A stretch of DNA of 32,000 nucleotides from Acaryochloris marina MBIC11017. Its GTDB lineage: Bacteria > Cyanobacteriota > Cyanobacteriia > Thermosynechococcales > Thermosynechococcaceae. Where the stretch lies: NCBI RefSeq assembly GCF_000018105.1, contig NC_009925.1:4260001-4292000 (forward strand), read 5' to 3'. Made by a program: the position numbers and the translations under genes. A model generated the notes under the pieces. The model searched no databases, was not told the origin of the DNA, and saw only the letters and a list, made by a program, of their open reading frames with translations. Positions 17,986 to 19,421 of this stretch are shown piece after piece. Numbering within the stretch: position 1 is the first letter of the stretch; each line of letters begins with the position of its first letter.

Positions 17986-18366
17986 ATGCCGGATTCAACA
18001 AAAAAAATAAACATAGACTACATTAAAAGCAACTTTTTCAGAGTCTTTCATGTTGATGGTCTTGGAGTTCAAATCACTCCTAACCTAGATATACAAATTA
18101 TTTCATGGAGCGAAAGAGCTTCTATACCAAAGAGAGTTGTTTTTGAGATAAACAGAGAAGATGGGGAGTCCTCTTTTGTTAAAGAAGAATTTGAGGATAG
18201 AGGCTCTATCGTAAGAGAAGTTGATGCCAGCCTGACAGTTACGCCAGAAATAGCGCACCAGTTCATTGAAAGGCTCCAGGAAGTTCTAGAAGAACTTAAA
18301 GCAATCAGCAACAAAAAGGATACAGAGGAAGCTAGTGAAGACACCAAGCCTGAAGACAACTCGTAG
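17986..18366 (+). CDS. small protein with acidic C-terminal tail (faint DUF3467-like pattern)
   Basis: ATG at 17986 is preceded by GAGGAG. 126 aa. The tail is KKDTEEASEDTKPEDNS. The resemblance to DUF3467 (YIKSNFF...; LTVTPEIAHQFIERLQEVLEELK) is from memory and weak. Confidence 0.55.
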   Translation: MPDSTKKINIDYIKSNFFRVFHVDGLGVQITPNLDIQIISWSERASIPKRVVFEINREDGESSFVKEEFEDRGSIVREVDASLTVTPEIAHQFIERLQEVLEELKAISNKKDTEEASEDTKPEDNS

Positions 18367-18823
18367 TTCGGCACGACAAAGATACGTGCTAAGAATGCTC
18401 AGTCTTGGTGGGCATCAACCCTTCTTATATAATCAGCCAAAACTCAAGCAGACTGAAACCGAAAATATTGAGCGCTGGGAAAATCTAAATGAGGCGAAGA
18501 AAAGGATACAAGCCTTGAGCGAAGAAGTAACGTTTGTTCAGAGGCAAGACATAAGTCTCTTCCTGCTTGAGAATTCTTCTTTAATCCCTCTAATGGAGGC
18601 GGCAAATTCAGAGCTTAGAAAATATTTTACCCAAGAGAACTTTTCTGTAGAGCTAAAGTCTGGGGAAGACTATGCTCCTGCAGGAGAGTTAGTATTAGCA
18701 GTTCTATCTCAAGATGAATTATGTAAAAGCTCCAATTTGTTTGATAGTTTCTGTGAAAATTGGTGGTTCAGTAACCTTAAGCTGTCCAATGGCAAGCTTT
18801 GCATAGAGATTCAGTTTGTATAA
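18335..18823 (+). CDS. hypothetical protein, candidate partner/antitoxin of the downstream HEPN protein
   Basis: GTG at 18335 is preceded by GAGGAA and overlaps the upstream gene by 32 nt; an alternative ATG lies at 18395. The C-terminal pattern ELVLAVLSQDE...FDSFCENWW...GKLCIEIQFV recalls small proteins paired with toxin genes in cyanobacteria. No MNT (GSxxxG...DxD) motif. Stop is 3 nt before the HEPN ATG. Confidence 0.55.
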   Translation: MKTPSLKTTRSSARQRYVLRMLSLGGHQPFLYNQPKLKQTETENIERWENLNEAKKRIQALSEEVTFVQRQDISLFLLENSSLIPLMEAANSELRKYFTQENFSVELKSGEDYAPAGELVLAVLSQDELCKSSNLFDSFCENWWFSNLKLSNGKLCIEIQFV

Positions 18824-18826
18824 TTT

Positions 18827-19207
18827 ATGAAGGTTTTTGACTGGAAAGACTACAACAATTTAGCTGAAAATATATTTGTAGGTTGCAAGAAAGAAGACCC
18901 TTTGTATGAAGCTAAGTTGCGTTGTGTTATTAGTCGAGCATACTACGCTGCATTTTGTTCTACCAAGGATTTTCTGGAAGACCGAAACGGACGATCATTG
19001 GGAACCAGCCACGTATCAGTTATTAATGAAGCGAGGAAACTTGAATGTCCAGAGGGGCACTTTATAAATTGTTATTTAGACAAGCTAAGAAATATAAGGA
19101 GAGCCGTTGATTATGACTTGAATTTTTCCGGTAAAATTGAATCTGAGGCCAGATTCGCCTTGCAGAAGTCGAAAGAAATTATTGGGAAAATCAATAATAT
19201 TCGATGA
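18827..19207 (+). CDS. HEPN domain protein
   Basis: 126 aa, apparently all helical. Helix-1 pattern EAKLRCVISRAYYAAFCSTKDFL and conserved LDKLRNIRRAVDYD (the R...R..a.Y motif of classical PF05168-type HEPN). Note there is no His after the Arg. Confidence 0.65.
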   Translation: MKVFDWKDYNNLAENIFVGCKKEDPLYEAKLRCVISRAYYAAFCSTKDFLEDRNGRSLGTSHVSVINEARKLECPEGHFINCYLDKLRNIRRAVDYDLNFSGKIESEARFALQKSKEIIGKINNIR

Positions 19208-19214
19208 ACCTTAT

Positions 19215-19421
19215 ATGAAGAGGTGCATTTCTAACTACAACGACGACTACATAGCCCCAATCACTGATCGTCTTACCCAAGAACAGAAACTTGAGCTATT
19301 AGACTGGCACCCTCTGTTTACTGGCCGATGCCCTAATTGTGAGATGCTGATGAAAGGGACTTAACCACCAAGAGTTCACTGGGATTGTGATGAATGCGGT
19401 TGGAAGGATGACACTATATAA
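19215..19421 (+). pseudogene. zinc-ribbon ORF interrupted by an in-frame TAA
   Basis: From ATG 19215: MKRCISNYNDDYIAPITDRLTQEQKLELLDWHPLFTGRCPNCEMLMKGT, then TAA at 19362-19364, then in the same frame PPRVHWDCDECGWKDDTI and TAA at 19419-19421. The CPNC and CDEC halves of one zinc ribbon lie on either side of the stop. Confidence 0.5.

What the first reader, a model, noticed from the sequence alone, without database searches (positions are those of the whole stretch)
17986..19421. Cargo cassette A: four tightly packed small genes ending in a HEPN protein and a broken zinc ribbon
This cassette sits immediately after terL, in the position where satellites and prophages usually carry accessory or defence genes. 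It has four + strand ORFs with overlaps or gaps of at most 8 nt. (1) A 126-aa protein with an acidic tail. (2) A 142-162-aa protein with an FDxFCENWW...GKLCIEIQF C-terminus. (3) A 126-aa HEPN-like protein with LRNIRRAVDYD but no catalytic His. (4) A CPNC...CDEC zinc-ribbon ORF. The HEPN partner lacks the MNT nucleotidyltransferase motif, so this is not the canonical HEPN-MNT pair. It is a candidate non-canonical HEPN toxin-antitoxin or abortive-infection module carried by a satellite.
Basis: partly seen in the sequence, partly recalled or inferred. Interest (0 to 1): 0.65.

Follow-up and report, generated by a model that had tools for sequence, protein, structure and literature searches.

The report
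HEPN toxin pair with new partner
Two of the four small genes form a widely conserved operon: a HEPN-type RNase preceded by a partner protein from an undescribed family. It is probably a toxin-antitoxin or abortive-infection module, carried here as cargo on a 16-kb satellite-like island of an Acaryochloris cyanobacterium.

Summary
The four ORFs exist as described, but they are not one cassette. Only ORF2 (18335/18395-18823) and ORF3 (18827-19207) belong together.

- **ORF3 is a genuine HEPN protein.** It sits in the AF0298/UPF0332-like HEPN-T clade (family profile, AlphaFold pLDDT 96.6, Foldseek hits all HEPN).
- **The "missing" catalytic His is relocated.** H62 and R91 are family-conserved. 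They align to H64/R122 of the retron type IX HEPN RNase, where both are needed for toxicity.
- **ORF2 belongs to an undescribed partner family.** It has no Pfam, NCBIfam, PADLOC or PDB match. A member lies directly upstream of the HEPN gene in 80 of 80 related loci from bacteria and archaea, most often with a 4-nt overlap. An archaeal virus carries the same arrangement.
- **A third upstream gene occurs in many loci** (TIGR04255 in 18 loci). ORF1 is unrelated to any of these third genes and is an orphan.
- **ORF4 is a backbone pseudogene.** It has an in-frame TAA, not a frameshift. Two sister islands share it and carry different lesions.
- **ORF1-3 fill a variable cargo slot** between terL and the ORF4 remnant.

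Most likely ORF3 is an RNase toxin neutralised by ORF2. This is a new variant of a known kind, of moderate interest, and untested experimentally.

The parts
17752..19234 (.). Variable cargo slot of the element, holding ORF1-ORF3. GC falls from about 0.45-0.46 over terL to about 0.39 across the slot and the cargo beyond it (to about 21000).
   Evidence: blastn against sister islands L090 and L091. Homology (84-85% nt) runs through terL to 17742-17751, is lost, and resumes at 19235/19257. The sister islands carry other genes there. Composition.
17986..18366 (+). ORF1, a 126-aa orphan with an acidic tail (alternative GTG start at 17968, 132 aa). Not a conserved part of the module.
   Evidence: No Pfam, NCBIfam, PHROG, PADLOC or PDB hit. 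No tblastn hit in 80 related loci. hhalign against four families of upstream 'third genes' gives probability <1%. No relatives in viral contigs.
18335..18823 (+). ORF2, a member of an undescribed HEPN-partner family (here called U1) and the putative antitoxin or neutraliser. The conserved C-terminal domain of about 95 aa spans roughly residues 55-162. The start is uncertain (GTG 18335, GTG 18386 or ATG 18395).
   Evidence: U1 profile built without ORF2 hits it at 6e-21. phmmer to upstream partners gives 1e-11. Alignment A3. No Pfam, NCBIfam, PADLOC or PDB sequence match. The AF2 model is of moderate quality (pLDDT 72) and has no convincing fold match.
18827..19207 (+). ORF3, a 126-aa HEPN-domain protein of the AF0298/UPF0332-like HEPN-T clade and the putative RNase toxin. 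Key residues are R37, Y40, H62, R91, D95 and Y96.
   Evidence: Pfam HEPN E=0.0035, below the gathering score. phrog_5176 at 3e-10. 690 family representatives. 47 of 60 members hit PF05168. Profile vs PDB: 9xbd at 7e-10, retron-Kva2 HEPN at 1.3e-4, 2hsb at 1.5e-3. AF2 pLDDT 96.6. Foldseek top hits are all HEPN.
19215..19421 (+). ORF4, a pseudogene of a ~68-aa CPNC...CDEC zinc-ribbon protein belonging to the element backbone. It carries an in-frame TAA at 19362-19364.
   Evidence: Translation. Identical in 9 assemblies. The homologous stretch in L090 has CAA at that codon but lacks a start and has TGG->TGA. L091 has a +1 frameshift.
16321..17751 (+). Large terminase gene; left border of the cargo slot (context).
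   Evidence: phrog_2 at 1.8e-36; Pfam Terminase_6C/6N.
7504..7552 (+). attL: a 49-nt exact direct repeat covering the 3' part of tRNA-Val(TAC) at 7478-7550 (context).
23487..23535 (+). attR: second copy of the 49-nt repeat. The element spans about 16.0 kb (context).

Best explanation
ORF2 and ORF3 form a translationally coupled two-gene toxin-antitoxin-like module.

ORF3 is a small HEPN RNase of the AF0298-like HEPN-T clade. In this clade the His of the canonical Rx4-6H motif is missing, and a His from the helix-2/helix-3 insert (H62) works with the retained Arg (R91). By analogy with the retron type IX HEPN, these residues would form a composite site at the dimer interface.

ORF2 belongs to a previously undescribed protein family that replaces the MNT adenylyltransferase of classical HEPN-MNT systems. 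Most likely it neutralises ORF3 by direct binding, in the manner of a type II antitoxin. Loss or inactivation of ORF2, through element loss or phage infection, would free the RNase and arrest the cell.

The pair rides as cargo in the variable slot between terL and a decayed zinc-ribbon gene. The carrier is a 16-kb tRNA-Val-integrated, satellite-like element in an Acaryochloris genome. There it would stabilise the element and/or act as an abortive-infection defence.

Shown here: the HEPN fold and family, conservation of H62/R91, strict synteny with the partner family, the cargo position, and the fact that ORF1 and ORF4 are not part of the module. Inferred: RNase activity, toxicity, which partner is the toxin, the mode of neutralisation, and the biological role.
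For: HEPN identity:
- 690 representative relatives, all about 125 aa.
- 47 of 60 family members hit PF05168, best E 2.4e-9.
- The family profile hits PDB HEPN proteins: 9xbd at 7e-10, retron-Kva2 HEPN at 1.3e-4, AF0298/2hsb at 1.5e-3.
- AF2 pLDDT is 96.6 with five helices.
- The top 16 Foldseek PDB hits are HEPN proteins, including HepT toxins, probability about 1.

Active site:
- R37, Y40, R91 and Y96 are invariant; H62 and D95 are conserved in at least 90% of members.
- PMC3710099 describes exactly this alternative His for the AF0298 clade.
- In the profile alignment, ORF3 H62 and R91 fall on Kva2 H64 and R122.
- H64A and R122A abolish Kva2 toxicity and defence, and that HEPN cleaves rRNA and tRNA (bioRxiv 10.64898/2026.07.14.738597).

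Partner:
- All 80 related loci from genome contigs have a U1 homologue directly upstream on the same strand. They come from Cyanobacteria, Chloroflexota, Acidobacteriota, Desulfobacterota, Verrucomicrobiota, methanogens, Nitrosotalea and others.
- Stop/start spacing is -4 nt in 31 of 67 loci, -11 in 8, and between -1 and +8 in 25. In the window it is +3.
- Starting from a U1 protein (P0240) also leads to a downstream HEPN gene.
- A Methanobacteriales virus carries the operon.
- Downstream genes are unrelated from locus to locus, so the module ends at the HEPN gene.

Cargo status.
Against: - There are no experimental data for any member of the pair.
- ORF3 alone is below Pfam's HEPN gathering score (17.9 vs 22 bits).
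- No PADLOC model covers the partner, and only a weak HEPN_IX hit covers ORF3.
- No DNA-binding domain was confirmed in the partner. An RHH-looking N-terminus in some cyanobacterial homologues was not confirmed by Pfam or a PDB profile search. Autoregulation typical of type II antitoxins is therefore unsupported.
- The ORF2 structure model is weak: only 1 of 5 models reaches pLDDT 72.
- In two Hormoscilla MAG loci the partner is split while the HEPN gene is intact. That is unexpected for a constitutively toxic RNase, although assembly errors could explain it.
- Related HEPNs (AbiV, Kva2) are held inactive by other means (RNA, or msDNA plus a WH protein), so simple protein-protein neutralisation is not guaranteed.
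- Many loci have a third upstream gene, so the functional unit may be larger than two genes.
Confidence: 0.6

Rival explanations
1. The functional unit is a three-component defence system: a sensor or regulator, the U1 adaptor, and the HEPN effector. The two-gene pair alone is incomplete. In the window, ORF1 would fill the slot of the variable third component, like TIGR04255 elsewhere.
For: 62 of 77 loci have a same-strand ORF ending at the start of U1. In 18 loci this is a TIGR04255-family protein, and in 8 it is a distinct ~210-aa family found mostly in archaeal loci. The archaeal virus vir080 has TIGR04255-like, U1 and HEPN genes with 4-nt overlaps. ORF1 abuts or overlaps ORF2 and was acquired in the same slot.
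Against: The third gene is not conserved. There are 30 BLAST clusters among the 62 loci, many of them singletons or unrelated large proteins such as TPR-CHAT. ORF1 shows no similarity to any of them. Several loci have the pair with nothing co-oriented upstream.
Confidence: 0.17
2. ORF2 is an enzyme that inactivates the HEPN protein covalently, a type VII-like mechanism analogous to MNT AMPylation of a HepT tyrosine. It would be a highly diverged or analogous modifier acting on the invariant Tyr96 of RxxxDY.
For: The C-terminal domain of the partner has near-invariant acidic residues in a beta-hairpin (LxLEVxxDPE) and an alpha-alpha-beta-beta-alpha-beta order. Y96 is invariant next to the catalytic Arg. 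The PDB holds a close HEPN relative both as wild type and as a Y->F variant at that Tyr (9xbd/9xbc). HepT toxins are regulated by Tyr AMPylation (PMC7641770, listed).
Against: None of 76 partners hits a nucleotidyltransferase Pfam family. There is no GS...DxD motif. Foldseek finds no NTase fold, only weak OsmC/KH-like matches with TM<=0.37. The model is of low confidence, so this test is weak.
Confidence: 0.1
3. ORF3 is a non-catalytic HEPN domain (an RNA- or nucleotide-binding adaptor). The pair would have a regulatory or RNA-processing role rather than being a toxin system, and its presence on the element would be incidental.
For: The canonical Rx4-6H motif is absent. PMC3710099 notes that some HEPN domains are inactive binders. 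Two loci have a disrupted partner with an intact HEPN gene. The AbiV HEPN does not affect normal growth (section heading).
Against: H62 and R91 are conserved across about 690 representatives and match residues shown to be catalytic in Kva2. The patchy distribution across bacterial and archaeal phyla, a virus and a mobile island is typical of conflict systems. The module sits in a slot that differs between sister islands.
Confidence: 0.1
4. One reading: all four ORFs form one cassette, ending in a HEPN protein and a broken zinc ribbon that once belonged to the system.
For: Tight spacing between ORF3 and ORF4 (7 nt) and a shared strand.
Against: The ORF4 region is 84-86% identical in sister islands that lack ORF1-3 and is broken differently in each. 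ORF1 and ORF4 have no counterparts in 80 loci carrying the pair.
Confidence: 0.03

Closest known systems
HEPN-T clade typified by Archaeoglobus fulgidus AF0298 (UPF0332; PDB 2hsb; Pfam PF05168), as defined in PMC3710099
   Same: About 125 aa and a helical HEPN bundle. The SRAYYAAF-type helix 2 is present, the Arg of the motif is retained, the His of Rx4-6H is replaced, and an alternative conserved His lies N-terminal to it. 2hsb is the top Foldseek hit and is matched by the family profile.
   Different: Classical members are paired or fused with MNT nucleotidyltransferases. This subfamily (N-terminal MSFDW, RLRxxRxxADY) is paired in 80 of 80 loci with an unrelated, undescribed protein.
HepT/MntA (HEPN-MNT) type VII toxin-antitoxin systems (Shewanella SO_3166/3165, Aphanizomenon, Legionella; PDB 5yep, 7bxo, 7ae8, 8xeh)
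   Same: A small HEPN RNase toxin with an upstream, translationally coupled partner. The fold is shared, with TM 0.58-0.66.
   Different: There is no MNT partner, no Rx4-6HxY motif, and no evidence for AMPylation.
HEPN effector of type IX retrons (Retron-Kva2; PDB 36ht; PADLOC HEPN_IX)
   Same: It lacks Rx4-6H and uses a His on an earlier helix plus an Arg (H64/R122). These align to ORF3 H62/R91. It is toxic when expressed alone and is neutralised by a partner that encloses the active site.
   Different: The retron HEPN is longer (174 aa) and works with an RT, msDNA and a winged-helix protein. There is no RT, retron ncRNA or WH protein here. Sequence similarity is weak: E=1.3e-4 for the profile and E=0.0078 for ORF3 against HEPN_IX.
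AbiV (Lactococcus abortive-infection HEPN; type III-like with an RNA antitoxin)
   Same: PMC3710099 places AbiV next to the AF0298 family because of the same alternative His. It is an anti-phage RNase.
   Different: ORF3 has no AbiV hit in PADLOC. The AbiV antitoxin is an RNA, whereas here a conserved protein-coding partner is present.
TIGR04255 family (NCBIfam 'sporadically distributed' protein of unknown function)
   Same: It is encoded immediately upstream of U1-HEPN in 18 of 77 loci and, in diverged form, in an archaeal virus.
   Different: It is absent from the window. ORF1 is unrelated to it.

Membership tests
HEPN superfamily, PF05168 / HEPN-T (AF0298-like) | Significant match to the HEPN profile | tested here: met
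   ORF3 alone is sub-threshold (E=0.0035, 17.9 bits vs cutoff 22, near full length). Its family is clear: 47 of 60 members hit PF05168, best 2.4e-9. The family profile hits PDB HEPN proteins at 7e-10 to 1.5e-3.
HEPN superfamily, PF05168 / HEPN-T (AF0298-like) | All-alpha up-and-down helical bundle of the HEPN fold | tested here: met
   The AF2 model has pLDDT 96.6 and pTM 0.89 with 5 helices. Foldseek PDB hits 1-16 are HEPN proteins, probability 0.99-1.00 and TM up to 0.66, although E-values are modest at 6e-3 or weaker.
HEPN superfamily, PF05168 / HEPN-T (AF0298-like) | Arg of the Rx4-6H motif retained, His replaced, and an alternative conserved His from the helix-2/helix-3 insert | tested here: met
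   R91 is invariant, H62 is conserved in at least 90% of members, and Y96 occupies the His position. The clade description is in PMC3710099.
HEPN superfamily, PF05168 / HEPN-T (AF0298-like) | Metal-independent endoribonuclease activity | not testable with these tools
   Needs biochemistry.
HEPN-MNT (HepT/MntA) type VII toxin-antitoxin | Adjacent minimal nucleotidyltransferase (GSx(n)DxD, Pfam NTP_transf_2 or similar) | tested here: not met
   ORF2 and 75 homologues have no NTase Pfam hit. There is no NTase fold match. No other ORF in 17752-19421 qualifies.
HEPN-MNT (HepT/MntA) type VII toxin-antitoxin | Rx4-6H(xY) catalytic and AMPylation motif in the toxin | tested here: not met
   The motif is RRAVDY (R91...Y96) with no His in it.
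Type II-like toxin-antitoxin pair (generic) | Two small co-directional genes, tightly or translationally coupled, conserved as a pair across unrelated genomes | tested here: met
   80 of 80 loci keep the pair. Spacing is -4 nt in 31 of 67 loci and +3 in the window. The reciprocal check from the partner side also leads to a HEPN gene.
Type II-like toxin-antitoxin pair (generic) | Antitoxin with a DNA-binding (RHH, HTH or AbrB) domain for autoregulation | tested here: inconclusive
   Nothing was detected in ORF2. An RHH-looking N-terminus in about 8 cyanobacterial homologues was not confirmed by Pfam or by a PDB profile search.
Type II-like toxin-antitoxin pair (generic) | Toxicity of one partner and rescue by the other | not testable with these tools
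   Needs expression tests.
Retron type IX (RT + ncRNA + HEPN + WH) | HEPN effector with catalytic His/Arg outside Rx4-6H | tested here: met
   The profile alignment places H62/R91 on Kva2 H64/R122. Mutational evidence is in bioRxiv 10.64898/2026.07.14.738597.
Retron type IX (RT + ncRNA + HEPN + WH) | Adjacent reverse transcriptase, msr/msd ncRNA and WH protein | tested here: not met
   No RT or WH Pfam hit appears in the cassette or its neighbours. Rfam finds only tRNA-Val in the window.
AbiV | Match to AbiV models | tested here: not met
   The PADLOC scan of ORF3 at E<=1 returns only HEPN_IX at 0.0078.
TIGR04255-U1-HEPN three-gene operon | TIGR04255-family gene directly upstream of the partner | tested here: not met
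   ORF1 has no TIGR04255 hit (NCBIfam). hhalign against the TIGR04255 cluster gives probability 0.8%.
Phage satellite or PICI-like element (context of the cargo) | Small integrative element with att sites, an integrase, replication and packaging genes, and no full virion module | tested here: inconclusive
   49-nt att repeats at tRNA-Val, 16 kb apart. An integrase, a primase/helicase-like 1019-aa protein, and terS and terL. No capsid, portal or tail hit appeared among the genes scanned. Several genes of unknown function (8890-11065, 14258-14914, 15716-16309) were checked only with Pfam or not with PHROGs. No helper phage is known.

The most novel reading that the evidence does not exclude
The U1-HEPN pair, with its optional third gene such as TIGR04255, is a previously unrecognised and widespread anti-phage or inter-virus conflict system of bacteria and archaea. 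Its partner protein would be a new kind of HEPN inhibitor or infection sensor. Satellites and viruses, including an archaeal virus, would carry it to exclude competitors.
Probability: 0.3. Interest if true: 0.7.

Novelty: new variant of a known kind. Interest (0 to 1): 0.5.

Why it matters
HEPN RNases are the effectors of many conflict systems, including Cas13, Csm6, HepT, RnlA, AbiV and type IX retrons. The AF0298-like clade, with its relocated His, has had direct functional support only very recently.

This locus points to a large subfamily of that clade: about 690 clusters at 50% identity, in many bacterial and archaeal phyla and in a virus. Its obligate neighbour is not MNT but a protein family absent from Pfam, NCBIfam, PADLOC and the PDB.

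If the pair is a toxin-antitoxin or Abi system, three things follow:
- It adds a new antitoxin or regulator family for HEPN toxins.
- It gives a first functional lead for the orphan family TIGR04255.
- It is an example of defence or addiction cargo in a cyanobacterial satellite-like element. These elements are poorly studied.

The pair is small (about 270 codons) and easy to test.

Tried and rejected
- **Word-indexed database searches** with ORF3 and ORF2 returned only the query itself. The exhaustive HMMER search was needed to find the family.
- **Direct PDB sequence searches** with ORF3, ORF2, ORF1, the 113-aa protein and the 1019-aa protein found nothing usable.
- **ORF2 as a cryptic MNT or NTase** is rejected on Pfam and Foldseek. 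The model quality limits the second test.
- **RHH DNA-binding domain** in some partner homologues: the sequence pattern looks right, but neither Pfam nor a PDB profile confirms it. It is kept only as an unverified lead.
- **ORF1 as a diverged third component** (TIGR04255 or other): no similarity.
- **Toxin-first decay asymmetry** as an argument for which gene is the toxin: the counts are balanced. HEPN is broken in L037, L086 and L092; the partner is broken in L036 and L082. This is uninformative.
- **Close relatives of terL and ORF1** in viral and metagenome contig collections: none. Sister islands were found instead through the terL 90% cluster.
- **Promoter and terminator scan** of the cassette: no more sites than in shuffles.
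- **Literature searches** for UPF0332+HEPN, TIGR04255, 9xbd/9xbc and HEPN+Acaryochloris: nothing relevant.
- **Conserved downstream gene:** rejected. The neighbours differ from locus to locus, for example FAD oxidase, protease, kinase, ABC transporter and helicases.
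Full report
**1. What is there**

The window holds an integrated element.
- tRNA-Val(TAC) lies at 7478-7550.
- Its 3' 49 nt (7504-7552) are repeated exactly at 23487-23535. This delimits about 16 kb.
- Inside, all on the + strand, are:
  - a tyrosine integrase (7700-8845, Pfam PF00589);
  - several proteins of unknown function;
  - a 1019-aa protein whose central third resembles a phage primase/helicase (29% identity, E=3e-26);
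  - a small-terminase-like protein (15325-15762; PHROG 3.5e-6);
  - a large terminase (16321-17751; phrog_2 1.8e-36, Pfam Terminase_6C/6N).
- No virion structural gene was recognised, but not every unknown gene was tested with every library. 'Satellite-like' is therefore a description, not a proof.
- The flanking housekeeping genes (MazG, DUF2227) cluster with Acaryochloris proteins. The exact proteins occur on a 6,503,724-bp contig.

The four ORFs of the finding are real open frames at the stated places.
- ORF2->ORF3 are 3 nt apart and ORF3->ORF4 are 7 nt apart.
- ORF1->ORF2 either overlap by 32 nt (GTG 18335) or are 19-28 nt apart (GTG 18386 or ATG 18395). Public annotations use both the 142-aa and the 162-aa version.
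- The 'broken zinc ribbon' is one reading frame interrupted by a single TAA at 19362-19364. It is not a frameshift.
- Nine independent assemblies of the same strain have the identical sequence, so this is not a sequencing error.

**2. ORF3 is a HEPN protein whose catalytic His is relocated, not missing**

On its own, ORF3 is a sub-threshold Pfam HEPN hit (E=0.0035, 17.9 vs 22 bits, covering 93 of 117 profile positions). It also hits an unannotated PHROG (phrog_5176, 3.2e-10).

The exhaustive HMMER search found 690 representative relatives, essentially all 120-145 aa and aligned end to end. In a 60-sequence alignment:
- W6, R37, Y40, R91 and Y96 are invariant.
- F4, E28, R32, S36, A38, Y39, H62, L84, L87 and D95 are at least 90% conserved.

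Further support:
- 47 of these 60 proteins hit PF05168, best E 2.4e-9.
- The family profile hits solved HEPN structures: 9xbd at 7e-10, retron-Kva2 HEPN at 1.3e-4, and AF0298/2hsb at 1.5e-3.
- AlphaFold2 with this alignment gives pLDDT 96.6 and a five-helix bundle.
- The first 16 Foldseek PDB hits are HEPN proteins, including 2hsb, 1wwp, HepT toxins, sacsin HEPN and TM0613. Probabilities are about 1 and TM reaches 0.66.

Anantharaman et al. [quoted passage not shown] The His of Rx4-6H is absent, the Arg is kept, and a second strongly conserved His sits N-terminal, in the insert between helices 2 and 3. They propose that it forms an alternative active site. ORF3 has both residues (H62, R91).

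The retron type IX HEPN effector shows the same arrangement. A 2026 preprint (10.64898/2026.07.14.738597) reports that it lacks Rx4-6H and uses H64 and R122. It is toxic when expressed alone unless these residues are mutated, and it cleaves rRNA and tRNA. In the profile alignment, H64 and R122 fall on the columns of ORF3 H62 and R91. I counted the residue numbers from the printed alignment.

**3. ORF2 is the obligate partner, from an undescribed family**

A scan of one genome per species with the HEPN alignment returned 80 loci. They come from Cyanobacteria, Chloroflexota, Acidobacteriota, Verrucomicrobiota, Planctomycetota, Nitrospirota, Desulfobacterota and others, and from archaea (Methanosarcinales, Methanophagales, Methanotrichaceae, Nitrosotalea).

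- In every locus with an intact HEPN ORF (77), a same-strand ORF ends at the HEPN start.
- All 77 such ORFs fall into a single BLAST cluster, and ORF2 hits them (phmmer 1e-11).
- With profile searches on stop-to-stop segments, all 80 loci have the partner.
- A partner profile built without ORF2 finds ORF2 at 6e-21. The next best of 333 window frames has E=1.4.
- The stop/start spacing is -4 nt in 31 of 67 scorable loci, -11 in 8, and between -1 and +8 in 25. This is typical translational coupling.
- The conserved part is a C-terminal domain of about 95 aa: LY.F...EV..FL...PFL.P.L.EA...I...FP...L.LEV..DPE...L...I.T.L...EA...L...D..WWL......KL.I..EF. The N-termini vary.
- Starting from the partner side, P0240 is followed by a full HEPN gene with a 4-nt overlap.
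- A Tychonema homologue is followed by a HEPN gene with an internal deletion.

The family has no match in Pfam (0 of 76 members apart from one stray DUF1548 hit), NCBIfam, PADLOC or PDB sequences. In the large protein database its members are 'hypothetical protein' or, for some Microcoleus and Tychonema entries, 'peptidase'. I found no support for that name.

The AlphaFold model of ORF2 is only moderately confident: pLDDT 72 for the best model, and the other four are below 52. Its element order is a long helix, two helices, two strands, a helix and a strand. Foldseek finds nothing convincing in the PDB (TM<=0.37, no nucleotidyltransferase). In BFVD it finds only an unnamed 104-aa viral protein (TMt 0.66). 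The partner is therefore not recognisably an MNT.

**4. What does not belong to the module**

- ORF1 has no hit in any library. It has no homologue in the 80 loci and no profile similarity to the upstream 'third genes' of those loci.
- Those third genes are heterogeneous. TIGR04255 occurs in 18 loci (E about 1e-43). A distinct ~210-aa family, mostly in archaeal loci, occurs in 8. A Microcoleus-specific family occurs in 5. The rest are singletons.
- Downstream genes are unrelated to one another.
- An archaeal virus (BK063677, Methanobacteriales host) carries the complete TIGR04255-like/partner/HEPN operon with 4-nt overlaps. Profile E-values are 1.9e-14, 7.8e-8 and 3.7e-21.

Two sister islands were found through the 90% cluster of terL. 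DNA comparison shows the following:
- 84-85% identity runs through terL up to 17742-17751.
- There is no similarity across 17752-19234.
- Similarity returns (84-86%) over 19235/19257-19397/19411, that is ORF4, with further patches toward attR.
- In that slot the sister islands carry other genes, for example a Peptidase_M78 gene in L090.

ORF1-3 are therefore island-specific cargo in a variable slot, and ORF4 is backbone. The ORF4 homologues are broken differently in each island:
- Window: CAA->TAA.
- L090: no start codon, plus TGG->TGA.
- L091: a +1 frameshift.

ORF4 is thus a decaying gene, not a component of the HEPN system.

**5. Mechanism proposed**

The best-supported model is a two-gene toxin-antitoxin-like or abortive-infection module.
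- ORF3 would dimerise like other HEPN RNases and use H62/R91. This rests on conservation and on the Kva2 precedent.
- ORF2 would hold it inactive. This rests on strict synteny, the upstream position and translational coupling.
- Direct binding is the default assumption for how it does so.
- A covalent, MNT-like mechanism on the invariant Y96 is a minority alternative. The acidic LEV..DPE hairpin and the existence of a Y->F crystal variant of a close relative (9xbd/9xbc) keep it alive.
- A three-component reading, with the third gene as sensor, is also open.

None of this has been tested experimentally. No defence-system library recognises the pair, and two MAG loci show a split partner with an intact HEPN gene. 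I put about 0.6 on the toxin/neutraliser model. I put about 0.95 on the narrower statement that ORF2+ORF3 are a conserved HEPN-plus-partner operon.

**6. Novelty and score**

- The HEPN clade and its alternative active site are known.
- HEPN toxins with protein partners are known.
- The partner family, its strict coupling to this HEPN subfamily, and the link to TIGR04255 appear undescribed in the libraries and literature I could search.

This makes it a new variant of a known kind. It is interesting to people who work on toxin-antitoxin and defence systems and is cheap to test, but it is not surprising in kind. Interest 0.5.

Noticed in passing
window 19447-20767 (- strand): Two overlapping minus-strand genes. 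One is a 113-aa protein with a weak RelE/StbE-like C-terminus (TIGR02385, E=0.011). The other is a 337-aa protein with no family hit, and they overlap by 35 nt. Both are absent from sister islands L090 and L091. This is probably a second cargo module, possibly another toxin-antitoxin pair with an unusually large partner.
   Followed up: partly
window 7504-7552 and 23487-23535: An exact 49-nt direct repeat of the tRNA-Val 3' end bounds a ~16-kb element. The element carries an integrase, a primase/helicase-like 1019-aa protein, terS and terL, and no recognised virion genes. It is a satellite-like island in an Acaryochloris chromosome.
   Followed up: partly
window 19215-19421; L090 9831-9985; L091 13073-13236: The small CPNC...CDEC zinc-ribbon gene is inactivated independently in three related islands: a nonsense codon, start loss plus a nonsense codon, and a frameshift. 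Its DNA nevertheless stays about 85% identical, like terL.
   Followed up: yes
L095 (BK063677.1 51298-52942): A Methanobacteriales virus from human gut encodes the complete three-gene operon (TIGR04255-like, partner, HEPN) with 4-nt overlaps. The module therefore also travels on archaeal viruses.
   Followed up: partly
L011, L017, L019 and 15 other loci, about 0.4-1.4 kb upstream of the HEPN gene: The orphan NCBIfam family TIGR04255 ('sporadically distributed', no known function) is encoded directly upstream of the partner-HEPN pair in 18 of 77 loci. This is a first contextual clue to its role.
   Followed up: partly
L092 2883-3080; L036, L082, L037, L086: Decayed copies of the pair. A Tychonema HEPN gene has an internal deletion next to an intact partner. 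HEPN is truncated or split in L086 and L037. The partner is split in two Hormoscilla MAGs with an intact HEPN gene. There is no clear asymmetry in which gene decays first.
   Followed up: partly
proteins P0209, P0211, P0213, P0239 and others: NCBI names several Microcoleus and Tychonema partner-family proteins 'peptidase'. No peptidase domain or fold was found, so this is probably a propagated misannotation.
   Followed up: partly
PDB 9xbd / 9xbc: The closest solved relative of the HEPN family exists as wild type and as a variant that differs by Tyr->Phe at the Tyr of RNRSDY (equivalent to ORF3 Y96). Someone is probing that residue. No paper was found in the library.
   Followed up: partly
window 23536-25498: Directly outside attR lies about 2 kb of 34-37% GC DNA with no ORF of 82 aa or more and no Rfam hit. 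It may be a remnant of an older insertion at the same tRNA site.
   Followed up: no
window 23014-23106: Three copies of the palindromic 15-mer CCCCAGTTACAGGGG lie 42 and 36 nt apart near the right end of the element. They may be recombination-directionality or repressor binding sites.
   Followed up: no
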